DNA from: a virus
Length of the DNA: 64,000 nucleotides
Strand: one strand, 5' to 3'
IMG/VR virus record: IMGVR_UViG_3300020179_002092
Location: 1-64,000 of that record
Below, one piece after another: positions 636-27,473 of this stretch. The notes under the pieces are model-generated. The model had not been told where the DNA came from. It did not search any database and saw only the letters and a list, made by a program, of their open reading frames with translations. A program made the translations under genes and the position numbers. How positions within the stretch are numbered: the first letter of the stretch is position 1; every line of letters begins with the position of its first letter.

Positions 636-826
636 TGCCTTGTTATAAATGTAGTAATGGTAAGTATAAGTATGGAGAAAAGGGCGATTGCCAATTTGAT
701 ACACTTGGCAGTTGTAAAGCAGCAGAACGAGCAATATACGCTAGAAAAAGGAAACTTACAAATGAGTTACAAACCAATGAAAAAACCAGGCCGGAAAAAA
801 CCAGGAAAAATGTAATAGATGAATAA
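635..826 (+). CDS. small Cys-containing phage hypothetical protein
   Basis: ORF track; TAATG coupling to upstream gene. Confidence 0.55.
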   Translation: MPCYKCSNGKYKYGEKGDCQFDTLGSCKAAERAIYARKRKLTNELQTNEKTRPEKTRKNVIDE

Positions 827-1946
827 ACGTACAGTTATACACACAGCACTAGCCGCAGCAGTTGCATTCACACTAGCTGGCTGCGGCACTAAAAAAGAAG
901 AACCAGCTCCAGCTAAAGCGGTAGAAGTTACCAAAGCAGAACCTCTTAAAGTTGGATTTATCTATGTAGGGCCAGTAGGTGATGCTGGCTGGACTTTTGC
1001 ACATGATAATGGACGCAAACATATCGAGCAGAAGTTTGGTGATAGGATCAAAACCACTTTTGTGGAAAAGGTGCCCGAAGGTGCTGATGCAGAACGTGTC
1101 ATTCGTGACTTAGTAACACAAGGCAATAAACTAATCTTTGCTACATCATTTGGTTTTGGTGATGCAATGGAAAAGGTAGCAAAAGACCACCCTGATGTTA
1201 AGTTTGAACATGCCACAGGATATAAAACTAGTAGCAATCTTAGCGTATACGAAGCTAAATTCTATGAAGATGCATATATGGCAGGTGTAGTTGCTGGTAC
1301 CATGACAAAAACTAATACACTAGGATTTGTTGGTAGTTTTCCTATTCCAGAAGTTTTACGTAATATCAATGCTTTTACACTAGGTGCACAAAGTGTTAAC
1401 CCTAAAGTTACTACTAAAGTAGTATGGATAAACACTTGGTTTGATCCGCCTAAGGAGTCAGAGGCAGCACAGGCACTGATTAATCAAAAGGCTGATGTAT
1501 TGCTACAGAATACTGACAGTACCGCAGTGCTACAAACTGCTGAAAAGAATGGTAAGTATGCTTTTGGTTGGGATAGTGACATGAGTGCCTTTGCTACCAA
1601 GGCACACCTAGGCTCAGCCATTGTAAACTGGGGTCCATACTATGAAAAAGCAGTAAATGACGTTCTTAGTGGTACATGGAAGACCAGTGACACAAAATGG
1701 GGCACTAAAGAAGGCGCTAATGACTTGATCAAAGTACCAGACTCAGTACCTGAAGCAGCTCGTAAACGTGTTGACGAAGTCAAGTCTGGACTCAAGGCAG
1801 GAACTTTTGCTGTATTTAAAGGCCCAATCAAAGACAACACCGGTAAAGTAGTTTTATCGAAGGATAAGGTAGCTGATGACGCTTGGAAAAGCAAGATCGA
1901 CTTCTTTGTAGAAGGCGTCGAAGGTAAAGTTCCAAGCGGTAAATAA
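819..1946 (+). CDS. BMP/PnrA-family ABC transporter substrate-binding lipoprotein (purine/nucleoside type)
   Basis: Lipobox LAGC; VGPVGDAGWT, FATSFG, IPEVLRNINAF, WFDP, QNTDS motifs. Confidence 0.92.
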   Translation: MNKRTVIHTALAAAVAFTLAGCGTKKEEPAPAKAVEVTKAEPLKVGFIYVGPVGDAGWTFAHDNGRKHIEQKFGDRIKTTFVEKVPEGADAERVIRDLVTQGNKLIFATSFGFGDAMEKVAKDHPDVKFEHATGYKTSSNLSVYEAKFYEDAYMAGVVAGTMTKTNTLGFVGSFPIPEVLRNINAFTLGAQSVNPKVTTKVVWINTWFDPPKESEAAQALINQKADVLLQNTDSTAVLQTAEKNGKYAFGWDSDMSAFATKAHLGSAIVNWGPYYEKAVNDVLSGTWKTSDTKWGTKEGANDLIKVPDSVPEAARKRVDEVKSGLKAGTFAVFKGPIKDNTGKVVLSKDKVADDAWKSKIDFFVEGVEGKVPSGK

Positions 1947-3182: not shown

Positions 3183-3216
3183 TTATTGCGGGCAAAGTGC
3201 CCGCAATAAAATTTTT
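3183..3216 (+). terminator. intrinsic terminator hairpin
   Basis: ttattgcgggca-aag-tgcccgcaataa perfect stem followed by A/T tract. Confidence 0.75.
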
Positions 3217-3220
3217 ACAC

Positions 3221-3249
3221 TTGACTTATTCTGCTTTACGGTGTATAAT
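3221..3249 (+). promoter_or_regulatory. sigma70 promoter driving the tRNA/tmRNA region
   Basis: TTGACT-17 bp-TATAAT with upstream AT tract. Confidence 0.85.
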
Positions 3250-4396: not shown

Positions 4397-4611
4397 AATA
4401 TACTAGATTTGACCTAGAGCAACTAATTCTCAAAAACTGGGAAATTACTACCGAAATTAAATACTTAAACGAATTAATCTTAGAGGGTAAACCAAGCCAA
4501 GATCAGATTACAAATTATTTGCTGGGCTTAGAAACTATTTATGAAGTAAAGTTTAATAAGTTATGGGATTGTTTTGAAGAACTTTGTCAAAATCAAAAGA
4601 TTGCACTTTAA
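4393..4611 (+). CDS. phage hypothetical protein
   Basis: ATGA overlap with upstream gene. Confidence 0.75.
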   Translation: MKYTRFDLEQLILKNWEITTEIKYLNELILEGKPSQDQITNYLLGLETIYEVKFNKLWDCFEELCQNQKIAL

Positions 4612-4612
4612 A

Positions 4613-4686
4613 GCCCTTTTAGTTAAATGGTATAACAGTTGATTTGTAATCATCAATTGGCAGTTCAATTCTGTCAAAGGGCACCA
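4613..4686 (+). tRNA. tRNA-Thr(TGT)
   Basis: Acceptor GCCCTTT/AAAGGGC, anticodon loop ttTGTaa, CCA. Confidence 0.9.
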
Positions 4687-4689
4687 AGT

Positions 4690-5036
4690 TATAGTTGTAT
4701 GAAGCTAATAGAAACTTACTGCGGACGCGGGGGGCAGTTCCTCGCCGGGTCCACCAAAAGCGCACTGCCACTTAATACATAAATGCGGACTTATACCGGT
4801 ACAGCTTCCGCGGGTTAGTATAAGGTTGCAAACTTATACGTTAGTGTGCTTCTGATGGGCCCGACTTAGATTCGACGGGGTAAATAGTATTGCAGTGGAC
4901 AACTCGGCAGGCGATCTCCGTAAAAGAAGCAAATTAAAATAAATGCAAATGATGAGCATTTTTATCAGGAATTTAAGCTAGCCGCTTAAAACTTGATCGG
5001 GGTTCTGGGAATTTCCTTGTTACCAAAAATTCCCAC
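4690..5036 (+). ncRNA. ssrA: circularly permuted (two-piece) tmRNA; tag ANDEHFYQEFKLAA
   Basis: 3' acceptor strand CGGGTCC-A-CCA (ends 4756) precedes 5' strand GGGCCCG (4857) with G3:U70; ATTCGAC motif; tag ORF GCA AAT GAT..GCC GCT TAA 4945-4989; outer ends approximate. Confidence 0.92.
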
Positions 5037-5072
5037 TATAATTAAAAGTTTAAACAAATTTAAAGGAATAAC

Positions 5073-5273
5073 ATGGAACTAGAGTTTAAACATGCAGGAA
5101 TGAGTGTTAGTTTTGAGTGTGATGAAAATGATCACTATGATCACGTTGATCTTCTACGAAATATTGCAGCTCTAGTTGATGAACTAGCTAACCATACTGG
5201 TGTTAGTCTTGTAGTCTTAAGTGACAACAAAGAAGAAGAAGCTAATAACACTGATGATAGTTGGGACGAATAA
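5073..5273 (+). CDS. acidic hypothetical protein
   Basis: ORF with AAGGA RBS. Confidence 0.7.
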   Translation: MELEFKHAGMSVSFECDENDHYDHVDLLRNIAALVDELANHTGVSLVVLSDNKEEEANNTDDSWDE

Positions 5274-7989: not shown

Positions 7990-8014
7990 AAAACCAGCTT
8001 AAGCTGGTTTTTTT
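7990..8014 (+). terminator. intrinsic terminator ending tRNA region
   Basis: aaaaccagc-ttaa-gctggtttt + T tract. Confidence 0.85.
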
Positions 8015-26285: not shown

Positions 26286-27473
26286 ATGAAAATTGCTATT
26301 ATTGGAGCAGGTATAGTAGGAATTACTTCTGCTTACTATCTGGCAAAAGCTGGTTATAAAGTTACTCTTTTTGACAGCGAATCAGGTCCTGCTCAACAGA
26401 GTAGCTATGCAAATGGGGCACAAATCAGTGTTAGCAATAGTGAAGTCTGGAATACTTGGCATAATATATACAAGGGTATAAAATGGTTAGCTAAAAAAGA
26501 TGCACCTCTCTTGATCCGACCCAGTTTGGATTGGGATAAGACACTTTGGCTTCTTAAATTCTTATACTATACAGCTACTAATATCTATGAAAAAAATACT
26601 ATTGCTACTATAAAACTGGGATTGCAGGCCCGTAAACTTTATGAAAAAATTATTGTAGAAGAACAGTTAAAATTTGATCAACGATATGAAGGCATACTGC
26701 ACATTTATAGAAACAAAAATTGGTTTAAACAAGCTAAACAAAGACAAGAGTTATATGTCTGGAACGATTGTGACCATGCGATCTTGACAAATAAAGACGA
26801 TATACTTAAAATAGAACCTAATCTGTTTAAAATTCAAGATATAGTTGGTGCTACTTATACAAAATCTGATTGGACCGGAGATATCTATCAATTCTGTAAT
26901 CATTTATTTAATGTATTAACAACAAAATATTCTATTGAATATGAATTCAATAGGAAAATAAGATTTATGTATGAGTTAAGTACCTATGATAAAATAGTTG
27001 TGGCCAACGGATCTCAAGCTAGACATTTGAGTAGACAAATTGGTGATTGTCATCCCGTATATCCTGTAAAAGGATACAGTATCACTGTTCCTGCACAAGA
27101 CATAAAAAACTATGATGCTATGCCCACAGTAAGTATTTTAGATGATGAAAATAAAATAGTATGCAGTAAACTTGGTGCTAGATTAAGAGTTGCAGGAACT
27201 GCAGAAATTACTGGTGATGATACAACGATAAGATCAGAAAGAATAGAACCTCTTGTAAGATGGGTAAATAAAAATTTTCCTGATATTAATACTGAACGAT
27301 ATGATAGTTGGGCTTGTTTAAGACCTATGACTCCAAATATGTTGCCAATAGTTAAACAAAGTAAATACAATGCTAAAGTATTTTATAATATTGGTCATGG
27401 GCATTTAGGCTGGACATTGAGTACAGCAACAGCAAAAAATTTAACTGAGTTAATGAATAATATTAAAAATTAA
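26286..27473 (+). CDS. dadA: D-amino acid dehydrogenase (FAD-dependent)
   Basis: GAGIVG, SYANGAQIS, YPVKGYS, RVAGTAE, WACLRPMTP, GHGHLGWT. Confidence 0.88.
   Translation: MKIAIIGAGIVGITSAYYLAKAGYKVTLFDSESGPAQQSSYANGAQISVSNSEVWNTWHNIYKGIKWLAKKDAPLLIRPSLDWDKTLWLLKFLYYTATNIYEKNTIATIKLGLQARKLYEKIIVEEQLKFDQRYEGILHIYRNKNWFKQAKQRQELYVWNDCDHAILTNKDDILKIEPNLFKIQDIVGATYTKSDWTGDIYQFCNHLFNVLTTKYSIEYEFNRKIRFMYELSTYDKIVVANGSQARHLSRQIGDCHPVYPVKGYSITVPAQDIKNYDAMPTVSILDDENKIVCSKLGARLRVAGTAEITGDDTTIRSERIEPLVRWVNKNFPDINTERYDSWACLRPMTPNMLPIVKQSKYNAKVFYNIGHGHLGWTLSTATAKNLTELMNNIKN

What the first reader, a model, noticed from the sequence alone, without database searches (positions are those of the whole stretch)
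4690..5036. Permuted two-piece phage tmRNA with an alphaproteobacterial-style T-loop
Seen: the CCA-bearing segment precedes the acceptor 5' strand; G3:U70 is kept; the T-loop reads GGCAGTT instead of TTCRANY; tag ANDEHFYQEFKLAA ends in the ClpXP-type LAA. Known: two-piece tmRNAs with GGCRG T-loops typify Alphaproteobacteria, while most Burkholderiales have one-piece tmRNA. Inference: the RNA may be of different ancestry than the betaproteobacteria-like protein AMGs and might resist host nucleases that target tmRNA. No smpB is in the window.
Basis: partly seen in the sequence, partly recalled or inferred. Interest (0 to 1): 0.7.

Follow-up and report, generated by a model that had tools for sequence, protein, structure and literature searches.

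The report
Chimeric two-piece phage tmRNA gene
A lake phage carries a real, split ("two-piece") copy of the ribosome-rescue RNA tmRNA; such phage genes are already known, but this one joins a betaproteobacterial-type body to an alphaproteobacterial-type "elbow", apparently swapped in as a cassette.

Summary
At 4687-5037 (+) lies a circularly permuted tmRNA gene (Rfam tmRNA_permuted, 110.5 bits). It has G3:U70, A73, an encoded CCA, the T loop GGCAGUU and the tag ANDEHFYQEFKLAA. No SmpB is found in the 74.5-kb record.

The RNA is not alphaproteobacterial as a whole. It belongs to a large phage-borne family: more than 120 IMG/VR contigs, plus cultured Stenotrophomonas and Synechococcus phages. 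Most members have a canonical T loop, and Rfam types them as beta_tmRNA. Syntenic sister phages share this gene's flanks at about 95% identity but carry a standard tRNA-like domain and an unrelated spacer. Only the elbow (T loop plus D loop) is alpha-like, and the elbow type switches repeatedly on the family tree. This points to exchange of a cassette made of the tRNA-like domain and the spacer.

The window passes the alpha_tmRNA threshold with 81.3 bits, but this is not diagnostic, because true beta tmRNAs score 63-87 on that model.

Two metabolic genes point to freshwater Burkholderiaceae as hosts, and those genomes carry one-piece tmRNAs. The mismatch with the host is therefore real, but it is normal for this family. 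Nuclease resistance is untested. Phage two-piece tmRNAs are published (Melnitz, 2022), and this scan has met them on other DNA. I class this as a new variant of a known kind.

The parts
4613..4686 (+). tRNA-Thr (anticodon UGU) with encoded CCA. It lies directly upstream, so its 3' processing should set the 5' end of the tmRNA acceptor piece.
   Evidence: ARAGORN. The same tRNA-to-tmRNA junction (ACCAAGUUAUAGUUGUAUGAAG) occurs in the syntenic kin L164, L230, L203 and L243, and in Stenotrophomonas phage Marzo.
4687..4756 (+). Acceptor piece (its 5' end is inferred). P2c 5' strand AGUUG 4693-4697; P2a 5' strand UACUGCG 4717-4723; T stem 4727-4732 / 4740-4745; T loop GGCAGUU 4733-4739; acceptor 3' strand 4746-4752; A73 4753; CCA 4754-4756.
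   Evidence: Rfam alignment; sequence. P2a and P2c are canonical in 79-99% of 86 distinct family members, with several pair types at each position.
4757..4856 (+). Intervening segment (100 nt) that maturation should remove. It is closed by a helix of about 11 bp (4758-4768 with 4841-4851) and is followed by CUGAU before G1.
   Evidence: Fold; the z-score is only -1.27, so the interior is not notably structured. It is 95% identical in L164, with compensatory changes in the closing helix, and unrelated to the 74-nt segment of the syntenic kin L230, L203 and L243.
4857..5037 (+). Coding piece (its 3' end is inferred). Acceptor 5' strand GGGCCCG 4857-4863; D-loop region ACUUAGAUUCGAC 4864-4876; P2a 3' strand 4876-4882; P2c 3' strand CAACU 4900-4904; small hairpin about 4905-4920.
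   Evidence: Rfam alignment; covariation counts; comparison of D-loop types.
4945..4989 (+). Tag reading frame: resume codon GCA, peptide ANDEHFYQEFKLAA, stop TAA.
   Evidence: Sequence; ARAGORN -ps90 gives the same tag. Related tags: ANDDYFYQDLKLAA (L230) and ANDDYFYQEVKLAA (L018/L165). A bacterial beta tmRNA (L153) encodes ANDEHFAIAA.
4999..5035 (+). H-type pseudoknot after the tag. S1 is GGGG 4999-5002 with CCUU 5015-5018. S2 is (U)GGGAAU(UU) 5006-5014 with (AA)AUUCCC(A) 5027-5035.
   Evidence: An S2 of at least 6 bp in the same arrangement is found in 45 of 98 family members, with 33 distinct S2 sequences, and in none of the shuffled controls. Full compensatory replacement is seen in L164, L230, L203 and L183.

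Best explanation
This is a functional phage-encoded two-piece tmRNA.

How it most likely works (every step is inferred). It is transcribed within a mixed operon of tRNA genes and small ORFs. Host tRNA-processing enzymes cut the transcript: the 3' processing of the abutting tRNA-Thr frees the 5' end of the acceptor piece, trimming exposes the encoded CCA at 4756, and RNase P cuts 5' of G4857. The 100-nt spacer is discarded. The two pieces stay together through the acceptor stem and helix P2. Host AlaRS charges the RNA through G3:U70 and A73. Host SmpB and EF-Tu deliver it to stalled ribosomes. Translation resumes at GCA 4945 and adds (A)ANDEHFYQEFKLAA, whose LAA end directs the product to ClpXP-type proteolysis.

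Where it comes from. The gene belongs to a large family carried by phages, whose body is of the betaproteobacterial two-piece type. In this lineage the tRNA-like domain and the spacer (T arm to D loop, which are contiguous in a permuted gene) were replaced by a cassette with an alpha-like elbow. This cassette circulates among phage tmRNA genes.

Likely benefit to the phage (inferred): keeping ribosome rescue running while host RNA synthesis is shut off and processed polycistronic transcripts yield non-stop mRNAs.
For: The gene is real and carries all sequence determinants.

Helices P2a and P2c and the 3' pseudoknot covary across about 90 relatives.

Stenotrophomonas phage Marzo has an annotated tmRNA between tRNAs, and Synechococcus phage BUCT-ZZ01 also carries one.

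In that sample 71 of 76 parsed members have canonical T loops and 5 have GGC-type loops. T-loop type and D-loop sequence covary.

The kin are syntenic. L164, L230, L203 and L243 share flanking proteins with the window at 62-93% identity.

Mosaic structure:
- Window against L230: 95% upstream, 72% T arm, unrelated spacer, 80% D region.
- L005 against L016: 100% T arm, 97.8% spacer and 100% D region, but only 80%, 55% and 50% in the flanks.

On a tree built without the tRNA-like domain, the elbow type needs 11 changes, and well-supported branches alone force at least 3.

The body is closer to beta than to alpha.

SmpB is absent here and in five jumbo-phage records that carry family members, three of them at least 92% complete.

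The operon is bounded by terminator-like sites at 3183-3209 and 7990-8011, with none directly after the tmRNA.
Against: There is no direct evidence of transcription, processing, charging or tagging. The contigs from RNA libraries gave only fragments, mostly over the tRNA-Thr or from relatives.

The window itself fails the beta_tmRNA cut-off (69.8 bits against 84).

The trees rest on only 115-194 columns, many forks are unresolved, and the root is unknown.

The bacterial samples are subsets of what is held: 26 alpha-type and 3 beta-type sequences.

The T arm is two bases longer than in kin, giving a 6-bp stem. It is not known whether host SmpB, EF-Tu or the ribosome tolerates that.

The host is inferred from only two metabolic genes.
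Confidence: 0.72

Rival explanations
1. One reading: the whole tmRNA gene is of alphaproteobacterial ancestry. It was captured from an alphaproteobacterium or one of its phages and is kept because the odd T loop escapes host nucleases that attack tmRNA.
For: The T loop GGCAGUU and the D loop ACUUAGAUUCGAC resemble the bacterial alpha type (GGCRGUA; AAAUAGGAUCGAC). For the window, alpha_tmRNA scores above beta_tmRNA (81.3 against 69.8). The tag begins ANDE, close to the alpha ANDN tags.
Against: Body identity is 44-49.5% to alpha against 54-61% to beta. True alpha tmRNAs score 203-299 on the alpha model, while true beta ones already reach 63-87, so 81.3 bits is cross-hit level. Syntenic orthologues with the same body carry a canonical elbow and type as beta_tmRNA. 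The 26 bacterial alpha sequences form a clade that excludes the window (100/97; 96/71). ANDE-type tags also occur in bacterial beta and Burkholderiaceae one-piece tmRNAs (ANDEHFAIAA, ANDERFALAA). Nothing bears on nucleases.
Confidence: 0.07
2. The alpha-like elbow arose in place by ordinary mutation and co-adaptation of the T loop and D loop (convergence), without any exchange of a cassette.
For: The T loop and D loop touch each other in the folded domain, so they are expected to change together (established tRNA and tmRNA structure). The phage T stem has 6 bp, unlike the 5 bp in all 25 bacterial alpha-type sequences parsed with a GGC-type T loop. The T-arm pattern was found in 0 of 401 genomes of the alpha class. 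So the phage elbow is not a plain copy of a bacterial one.
Against: In the same interval the whole spacer and acceptor pair 5/6 also differ from the syntenic kin, while the flanks stay 95% identical. Nearly identical cassettes of T arm, spacer and D loop sit in divergent bodies (L005, L016, L021). The elbow type needs at least 3 and most likely about 11 switches on the tree. The same T arm also occurs in one-piece phage tmRNAs and in alpha-leaning phage tmRNAs.
Confidence: 0.12
3. The RNA does not rescue ribosomes. It is a decaying relic, or a decoy that ties up host SmpB or AlaRS and blocks host trans-translation, as proposed for the mini-tmRNA of mycobacteriophage DS6A that consists of the tRNA-like domain only.
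For: No expression data exist. The elbow and the 6-bp T stem are unusual. The phage has no SmpB of its own. DS6A-type inhibition is described in the literature (PMC4131195).
Against: The tag frame, the sequence before the resume codon, helix P2 and the 3' pseudoknot are all intact and are maintained by compensatory changes across the family. A decoy would not need them. Tags stay in frame and keep the (L/M/I)AA end in nearly all kin.
Confidence: 0.06

Closest known systems
Betaproteobacterial two-piece tmRNA (Rfam RF01850 beta_tmRNA; the 'third lineage' of Sharkady and Williams 2004, as cited in PMC9004378)
   Same: Permuted gene order. Similar P2 and pre-tag region. The tag start ANDEHF and the pseudoknot loop CCUUGUUACCAAA are shared with a bacterial member, L153. 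Body identity is 54-61%. Syntenic orthologues pass the family cut-off.
   Different: The window itself scores 69.8, below the cut-off of 84. Its T loop is GGCAGUU on a 6-bp stem and its D loop is alpha-like, where bacterial members have UUCGAYU and a (C/U)GG(U/C)UUCGAC D region. It is phage-borne and sits in a tRNA array. Its spacer is longer: 100 nt, against a median of 33 nt in 29 bacterial two-piece genes. Bacterial members score 169-296 bits.
Alphaproteobacterial two-piece tmRNA (Rfam RF01849 alpha_tmRNA; Caulobacter type, Keiler et al. 2000, as cited in PMC9004378)
   Same: GGC-type T loop and an AUAG(G/A)(A/U)UCGAC-type D loop. Permuted order. A pseudoknot after the tag.
   Different: The body is only 44-49.5% identical. 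The score of 81.3 bits compares with 203-299 for true members. The T stem has 6 bp, not 5. The window lies outside the bacterial alpha clade.
Published and deposited phage two-piece tmRNAs: OM43 phage Melnitz and pelagimyophages (Buchholz et al. 2022, PMC9004378); Stenotrophomonas phage Marzo (MZ326868, annotated tmRNA); Synechococcus phage BUCT-ZZ01 (ON615601, not annotated)
   Same: A phage-encoded permuted tmRNA without SmpB, in aquatic or large phages, of a type that differs from the host's own tmRNA. Marzo shares the tRNA-to-tmRNA junction and the 5' signature. BUCT-ZZ01 shares the pre-tag region at 83%.
   Different: Marzo and BUCT-ZZ01 have canonical T loops. Melnitz is reported as alpha-type and has a glutamine riboswitch. 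No such riboswitch is found here: there is no glnA-type hit at E up to 10 in 4560-5120. This phage has T5-like replication genes and a lake origin.
tmRNA genes interrupted by mobile elements (the group I intron form with homing endonucleases in the T loop; PMC11915505)
   Same: A mobile insert sits inside the tRNA-like domain region of ssrA. In kin of this gene the spacer holds small ORFs and a LAGLIDADG-like gene.
   Different: No splicing is needed here, because the spacer is removed by tRNA processing. The window's own spacer has no ORF.

Membership tests
tmRNA, permuted form (Rfam RF04321) | Covariance-model score at or above the curated cut-off (47 bits) | tested here: met
   110.5 bits, E 1e-20, full model 1-213.
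tmRNA, permuted form (Rfam RF04321) | The CCA-bearing 3' half of the tRNA-like domain is encoded upstream of the 5' half | tested here: met
   CCA at 4754-4756; G1 at 4857; 100-nt spacer between them.
tmRNA, permuted form (Rfam RF04321) | Alanine identity set: G3:U70, A73, 7-bp acceptor stem | tested here: met
   GGGCCCG 4857-4863 pairs with CGGGUCC 4746-4752; G4859:U4750; A4753.
tmRNA, permuted form (Rfam RF04321) | Tag frame that opens with an Ala resume codon and ends in a hydrophobic-Ala-Ala motif and a stop | tested here: met
   GCA at 4945 through TAA at 4989 encodes ANDEHFYQEFKLAA.
tmRNA, permuted form (Rfam RF04321) | Helix P2 joins the two pieces and is supported by covariation | tested here: met
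   P2a and P2c are canonical in 79-99% of 86 distinct kin, with several pair types. The P2b pairing I proposed was not supported.
tmRNA, permuted form (Rfam RF04321) | Matures into two RNA pieces; is charged with Ala; binds SmpB; tags proteins | not testable with these tools
   Contigs from RNA libraries were fragmentary. No biochemical data exist.
alpha_tmRNA (Rfam RF01849) | Score at or above the cut-off (50 bits) and within the range of true members | tested here: inconclusive
   81.3 bits passes the cut-off. But true beta tmRNAs score 62.7 and 86.9 on this model, and true alpha ones 203-299.
alpha_tmRNA (Rfam RF01849) | GGC-type T loop with the matching D loop | tested here: met
   GGCAGUU and ACUUAGAUUCGAC, against bacterial GGCRGUA and AAAUAGGAUCGAC.
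alpha_tmRNA (Rfam RF01849) | Body (P2, pre-tag region) related to alphaproteobacterial members | tested here: not met
   44-49.5% identity, the lowest of all groups compared. The bacterial alpha clade excludes the window.
beta_tmRNA (Rfam RF01850) | Score at or above the cut-off (84 bits) | tested here: not met
   69.8 bits. Syntenic orthologues: L164 87.6, L230 95.3, L203 103.1, L243 106.6.
beta_tmRNA (Rfam RF01850) | Body related to betaproteobacterial members | tested here: met
   54-61% identity to L153-L155. The tag start ANDEHF and the pseudoknot loop are shared.
beta_tmRNA (Rfam RF01850) | Canonical UUCRANY T loop on a 5-bp stem | tested here: not met
   GGCAGUU on a 6-bp stem.
Phage-borne permuted tmRNA family (defined here by its 5' signature) | 5' strand GUAUGAAG..A...GAA.........GGACGCG followed by a T arm, CCA, a spacer ending in UGAU or UAAU, and then GGG | tested here: met
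   The window matches the pattern that finds more than 120 IMG/VR contigs.

The most novel reading that the evidence does not exclude
Inside phage tmRNA genes, the tRNA-like domain together with its spacer behaves as a mobile cassette. Homing-type nucleases or small genes lodged in the spacer spread it and co-convert the flanking elbow. The alpha-like elbow, which lacks U54 and U55, changes which host factors can act on the RNA (modification enzymes, SmpB, T-loop nucleases). On this reading the elbow type is a battleground between phage and host, or between phages. A further possibility is that the rare bacterial 'third lineage' of two-piece tmRNA itself came from such phage genes.
Probability: 0.2. 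Interest if true: 0.7.

Novelty: new variant of a known kind. Interest (0 to 1): 0.42.

Why it matters
Phage two-piece tmRNAs are already described, so the gene as such is not news. Three things are useful here.

1. Typing by T loop or by the alpha_tmRNA cut-off misleads. This RNA has a beta-type body with an alpha-type elbow. Claims of "host transition" that rest on tmRNA type, as made for Melnitz, therefore need module-by-module analysis.

2. A stable-RNA gene of about 350 nt shows clear internal mosaicism: the elbow with its spacer, and the tag, reassort among syntenic phages. This gives a natural set of elbow swaps for testing what SmpB, EF-Tu, the ribosome and the T-loop enzymes require.

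3. ARAGORN at default settings misses this variant, so surveys based on it undercount such genes.

Tried and rejected
I could not fetch the 131-kb contig that carries the identical BMP protein, so the rest of the phage genome was not checked for SmpB.
- Expression. Four metatranscriptome runs are held only as contigs. They covered mainly the tRNA-Thr and scattered pieces at 90-99% identity. One contig belongs to an L005-like relative. This says nothing about ends, processing or expression of this gene.
- ARAGORN with default settings found nothing.
- Glutamine riboswitch, as in Melnitz: no Rfam hit even at E up to 10 in 4560-5120.
- cyano_tmRNA (RF01851): no match.
- The spacer fold is not exceptional (z -1.27), and neither are the isolated pseudoknot and pre-tag folds.
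- The P2b pairing I proposed (GC.AAUA with UAUUGC) is not supported across the family.
- The L026 spacer ORF, which I guessed to be HNH, has no Pfam hit. The L023 ORF is LAGLIDADG-like but just under the cut-off.
- BLAST of the tmRNA against 172 genomes of the family of the best candidate host gave no match. The tool notes that this call had no positive control.
- Monophyly of the three bacterial beta sequences is not rejected (p-AU 0.35), so the direction of transfer between phage and bacterium cannot be told.
- The papers PMC516066 and PMC16621 are not held. What I say about them comes from citations in PMC9004378 and from my own knowledge.
- A first regex for the pseudoknot failed for technical reasons and was replaced.

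Full report
WHAT IS THERE

The window is the first 64 kb of a 74.5-kb IMG/VR virus record, estimated 66% complete. It has an AT-rich core of 32-35% G+C. It encodes family A DNA polymerase, an SbcCD-like nuclease, NAD-dependent ligase, a DnaB-like helicase and ribonucleotide reductase.

The same DNA stretch occurs in lake and freshwater metagenomes; 17 studies hold at least part of it.

ARAGORN finds seven tRNA genes between 3497 and 7987.

Rfam places a permuted tmRNA at 4693-4989 (RF04321, 110.5 bits, cut-off 47) and alpha_tmRNA at 4640-5037 (81.3 bits).

- a T arm at 4727-4745 with the loop GGCAGUU at 4733-4739
- the acceptor 3' strand at 4746-4752, A73 and an encoded CCA at 4753-4756
- a 100-nt spacer
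- the acceptor 5' strand from G4857, with G3:U70
- the tag ANDEHFYQEFKLAA at 4945-4989

ARAGORN misses the gene at default settings and calls it as a permuted tmRNA only with -ps90. SmpB is absent from the whole record.

STRUCTURE AND CONSERVATION

I cut the acceptor and coding pieces out of about 100 related viral loci and aligned them.
- Helices P2a (4717-4723 with 4876-4882) and P2c (4693-4697 with 4900-4904) are canonical in 79-99% of 86 distinct sequences, with several pair types at each position.
- After the tag lies an H-type pseudoknot. Its second stem is replaced by fully compensatory sequences in relatives: 33 distinct versions in 45 of 98 kin, and none in shuffled controls.
- The spacer is closed by a helix that shows compensatory changes against the nearest relative, L164.

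The gene is therefore under selection as a structured RNA. The tmRNA has no terminator of its own. The tRNA and small-ORF block is bounded by terminator-like hairpins at 3183-3209 and 7990-8011. The tRNA-Thr ends three bases before the conserved start of the acceptor piece.

WHICH KIND OF TWO-PIECE tmRNA

I calibrated the Rfam models on bacterial genomes:
- True alpha tmRNAs score 203-299 bits on alpha_tmRNA and 32-60 on beta_tmRNA.
- True beta tmRNAs score 169-296 on beta_tmRNA and still 63-87 on alpha_tmRNA.

The window scores 81.3 on the alpha model and 69.8 on the beta model. Both values are at cross-hit level, so passing the alpha cut-off of 50 means nothing.

Of 76 that I could parse, 71 have canonical T loops (UUCGACU and similar on a 5-bp stem) and five have GGC-type loops.

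Cultured members exist:
- Stenotrophomonas phages of the genus Menderavirus. Marzo has an annotated tmRNA between tRNA genes, with the same tRNA-to-tmRNA junction as here.
- Synechococcus phage BUCT-ZZ01, where the gene is not annotated.

Members with a canonical elbow type as beta_tmRNA at 87-130 bits. A bacterial beta tmRNA (L153) encodes ANDEHFAIAA and has the pseudoknot loop CCUUGUUACCAAA, as the window does. Outside the tRNA-like domain the window is 54-61% identical to bacterial beta sequences, 44-49.5% to bacterial alpha sequences, and up to 82% to viral sequences with a canonical elbow. The 26 sampled bacterial alpha sequences form a clade that excludes the window (100/97; 96/71).

THE ALPHA-LIKE ELBOW IS A CASSETTE

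T-loop type goes with D-loop type. GGC loops pair with A(A/U)(A/U)UAG(G/A)(U/A)UCGAC, as in bacterial alpha tmRNAs. Canonical loops pair with (C/U/A)CAUGGUUUCGAC.

Four contigs (L164, L230, L203, L243) are syntenic with the window. Their flanking proteins are 62-93% identical to the window's, and the same tRNA-Thr lies upstream. L164 shares the window's elbow and spacer. L230, L203 and L243 keep the 5' strand at 95% identity but have a canonical T arm, a different acceptor pair, an unrelated 74-nt spacer and a canonical D loop.

The converse also holds. L005, L016 and L021 share a T arm, spacer and D loop that are 97-100% identical, while their bodies are only 50-80% identical.

On a tree built without the tRNA-like domain, the elbow type needs 11 changes, and well-supported branches alone force at least three.

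Tags reassort too. The window and L230 carry the long ...YQ(E/D)(F/L)KLAA tag. L164, L203 and L243 carry ANDEVFALAA. All four combinations of elbow and tag therefore occur among syntenic phages.

The phage GGC-type T arm has a 6-bp stem:
- The exact pattern is absent from 401 genomes of the alpha class.
- None of the 25 bacterial alpha-type sequences parsed with a GGC-type T loop can form the sixth pair.
- The same T arm occurs in alpha-leaning phage tmRNAs (L010, L012, L022, L029; 95-110 bits on the alpha model).
- It also occurs in one-piece phage tmRNAs (L017, L025, L028, L030).

HOST

The BMP-family lipoprotein gene (819-1946) has its best matches, 74-83% identity, almost only in freshwater Burkholderiaceae and Burkholderiales genomes among 185,579 species. 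The DAO-like gene (26286-27473) is also best in the top BMP genome, G001, at 45%.

Four of the five nearest genomes show a one-piece tmRNA (159-211 bits) with a canonical elbow and tags such as ANEERFALAA. None has a permuted gene.

Only 3 of 151 sampled genomes of that order pass the beta_tmRNA cut-off. No genome of G001's family matched the window's tmRNA by BLAST, although that call had no positive control. One genome in the samples, G180, is unpublished. It counts only as one of the non-hits in those tallies, and no other claim rests on it.

The phage's tmRNA is therefore not host-like. This holds across the family: Stenotrophomonas phages carry members too, and five jumbo phages with family members lack SmpB.

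WHAT IS KNOWN

Buchholz et al. 2022 (PMC9004378) describe a two-piece tmRNA in the OM43 phage Melnitz. They count 53 distinct two-piece forms among 18,146 phage genomes, mostly aquatic, using ARAGORN. They interpret an alpha-type gene in a phage of a beta-type host as a sign of host transition. The 2025 tmRNA database lists 79 phage sequences (PMC11915505).

This scan has reported phage two-piece tmRNAs, with genes or nucleases in the spacer, on other DNA. I saw the same in kin of this gene: ORFs of 45-132 residues and a LAGLIDADG-like gene. The window's own spacer is empty.

VERDICT

This is a real and probably functional phage tmRNA of a known kind. The alpha-like T loop is real, but it marks a swapped elbow on a beta-type body, not alphaproteobacterial ancestry. 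Function, processing and any nuclease escape remain untested.

Noticed in passing
L025 10600-10755 (+), IMGVR_UViG_3300045988_159261: A partial match to OLE RNA (RF01071; 104 bits; model positions 437-594 of 616) inside a 110-kb viral contig that also holds about 30 tRNA genes and a one-piece tmRNA.
   Followed up: no
L017 6177-6618; L030 10381-10824; L028 3446-3830 (-); L025 2689-3120 (-): One-piece (standard-order) phage tmRNAs (RF00023, 52-108 bits) that end in the same 6-bp, GGC-type T arm as the window. The alpha-like elbow is therefore not tied to the permuted gene form.
   Followed up: partly
Spacers of kin: L023 6665-7060 (-), L026 1252-1626 (+), L224, L242, L214, L231, L173, L205 and others: Long spacers (140-453 nt) hold ORFs of 45-132 residues. 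Many of these stop on the conserved UGA just 5' of G1. The L023/L167 ORF is LAGLIDADG-like, just under the Pfam cut-off. L224 and L242 encode related small hydrophobic proteins. Earlier notes of this scan describe the same use of this slot.
   Followed up: partly
GenBank ON615601 (L032 1299-1595); KR560069, MN095772, MN098328, MK580972, MZ042490, OL702939: The permuted tmRNA genes are unannotated in Synechococcus phage BUCT-ZZ01 and in several Stenotrophomonas Menderavirus records. One record labels the gene 'tRNA-OTHER'. Marzo, Bhz51, Yut2 and Yut3 annotate it.
   Followed up: partly
window 819-1946: The BMP/PnrA-like lipoprotein gene has hundreds of metagenome homologues at 85-91% identity, which is closer than any of the 185,579 species genomes (at most 83%). 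Its G+C is 42%, against 49-65% in the bacterial homologues. Many of the close copies may therefore be phage-borne.
   Followed up: partly
L171, L215, L218 (viral); L153, L154 (bacterial beta): Some family members and two bacterial beta tmRNAs do not encode the terminal CCA (ACC is followed by U or C), so they would need the CCA-adding enzyme. The window encodes CCA.
   Followed up: no
window 3183-3249 and 7990-8011: The block of tRNA genes, tmRNA and small ORFs looks like one transcription unit. A terminator-like hairpin at 3183-3209 is followed by a promoter-like site matching the consensus at 11 of 12 positions (3221-3249). The next strong terminator-like site comes right after the tRNA with anticodon CAU, at 7990-8011.
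   Followed up: no
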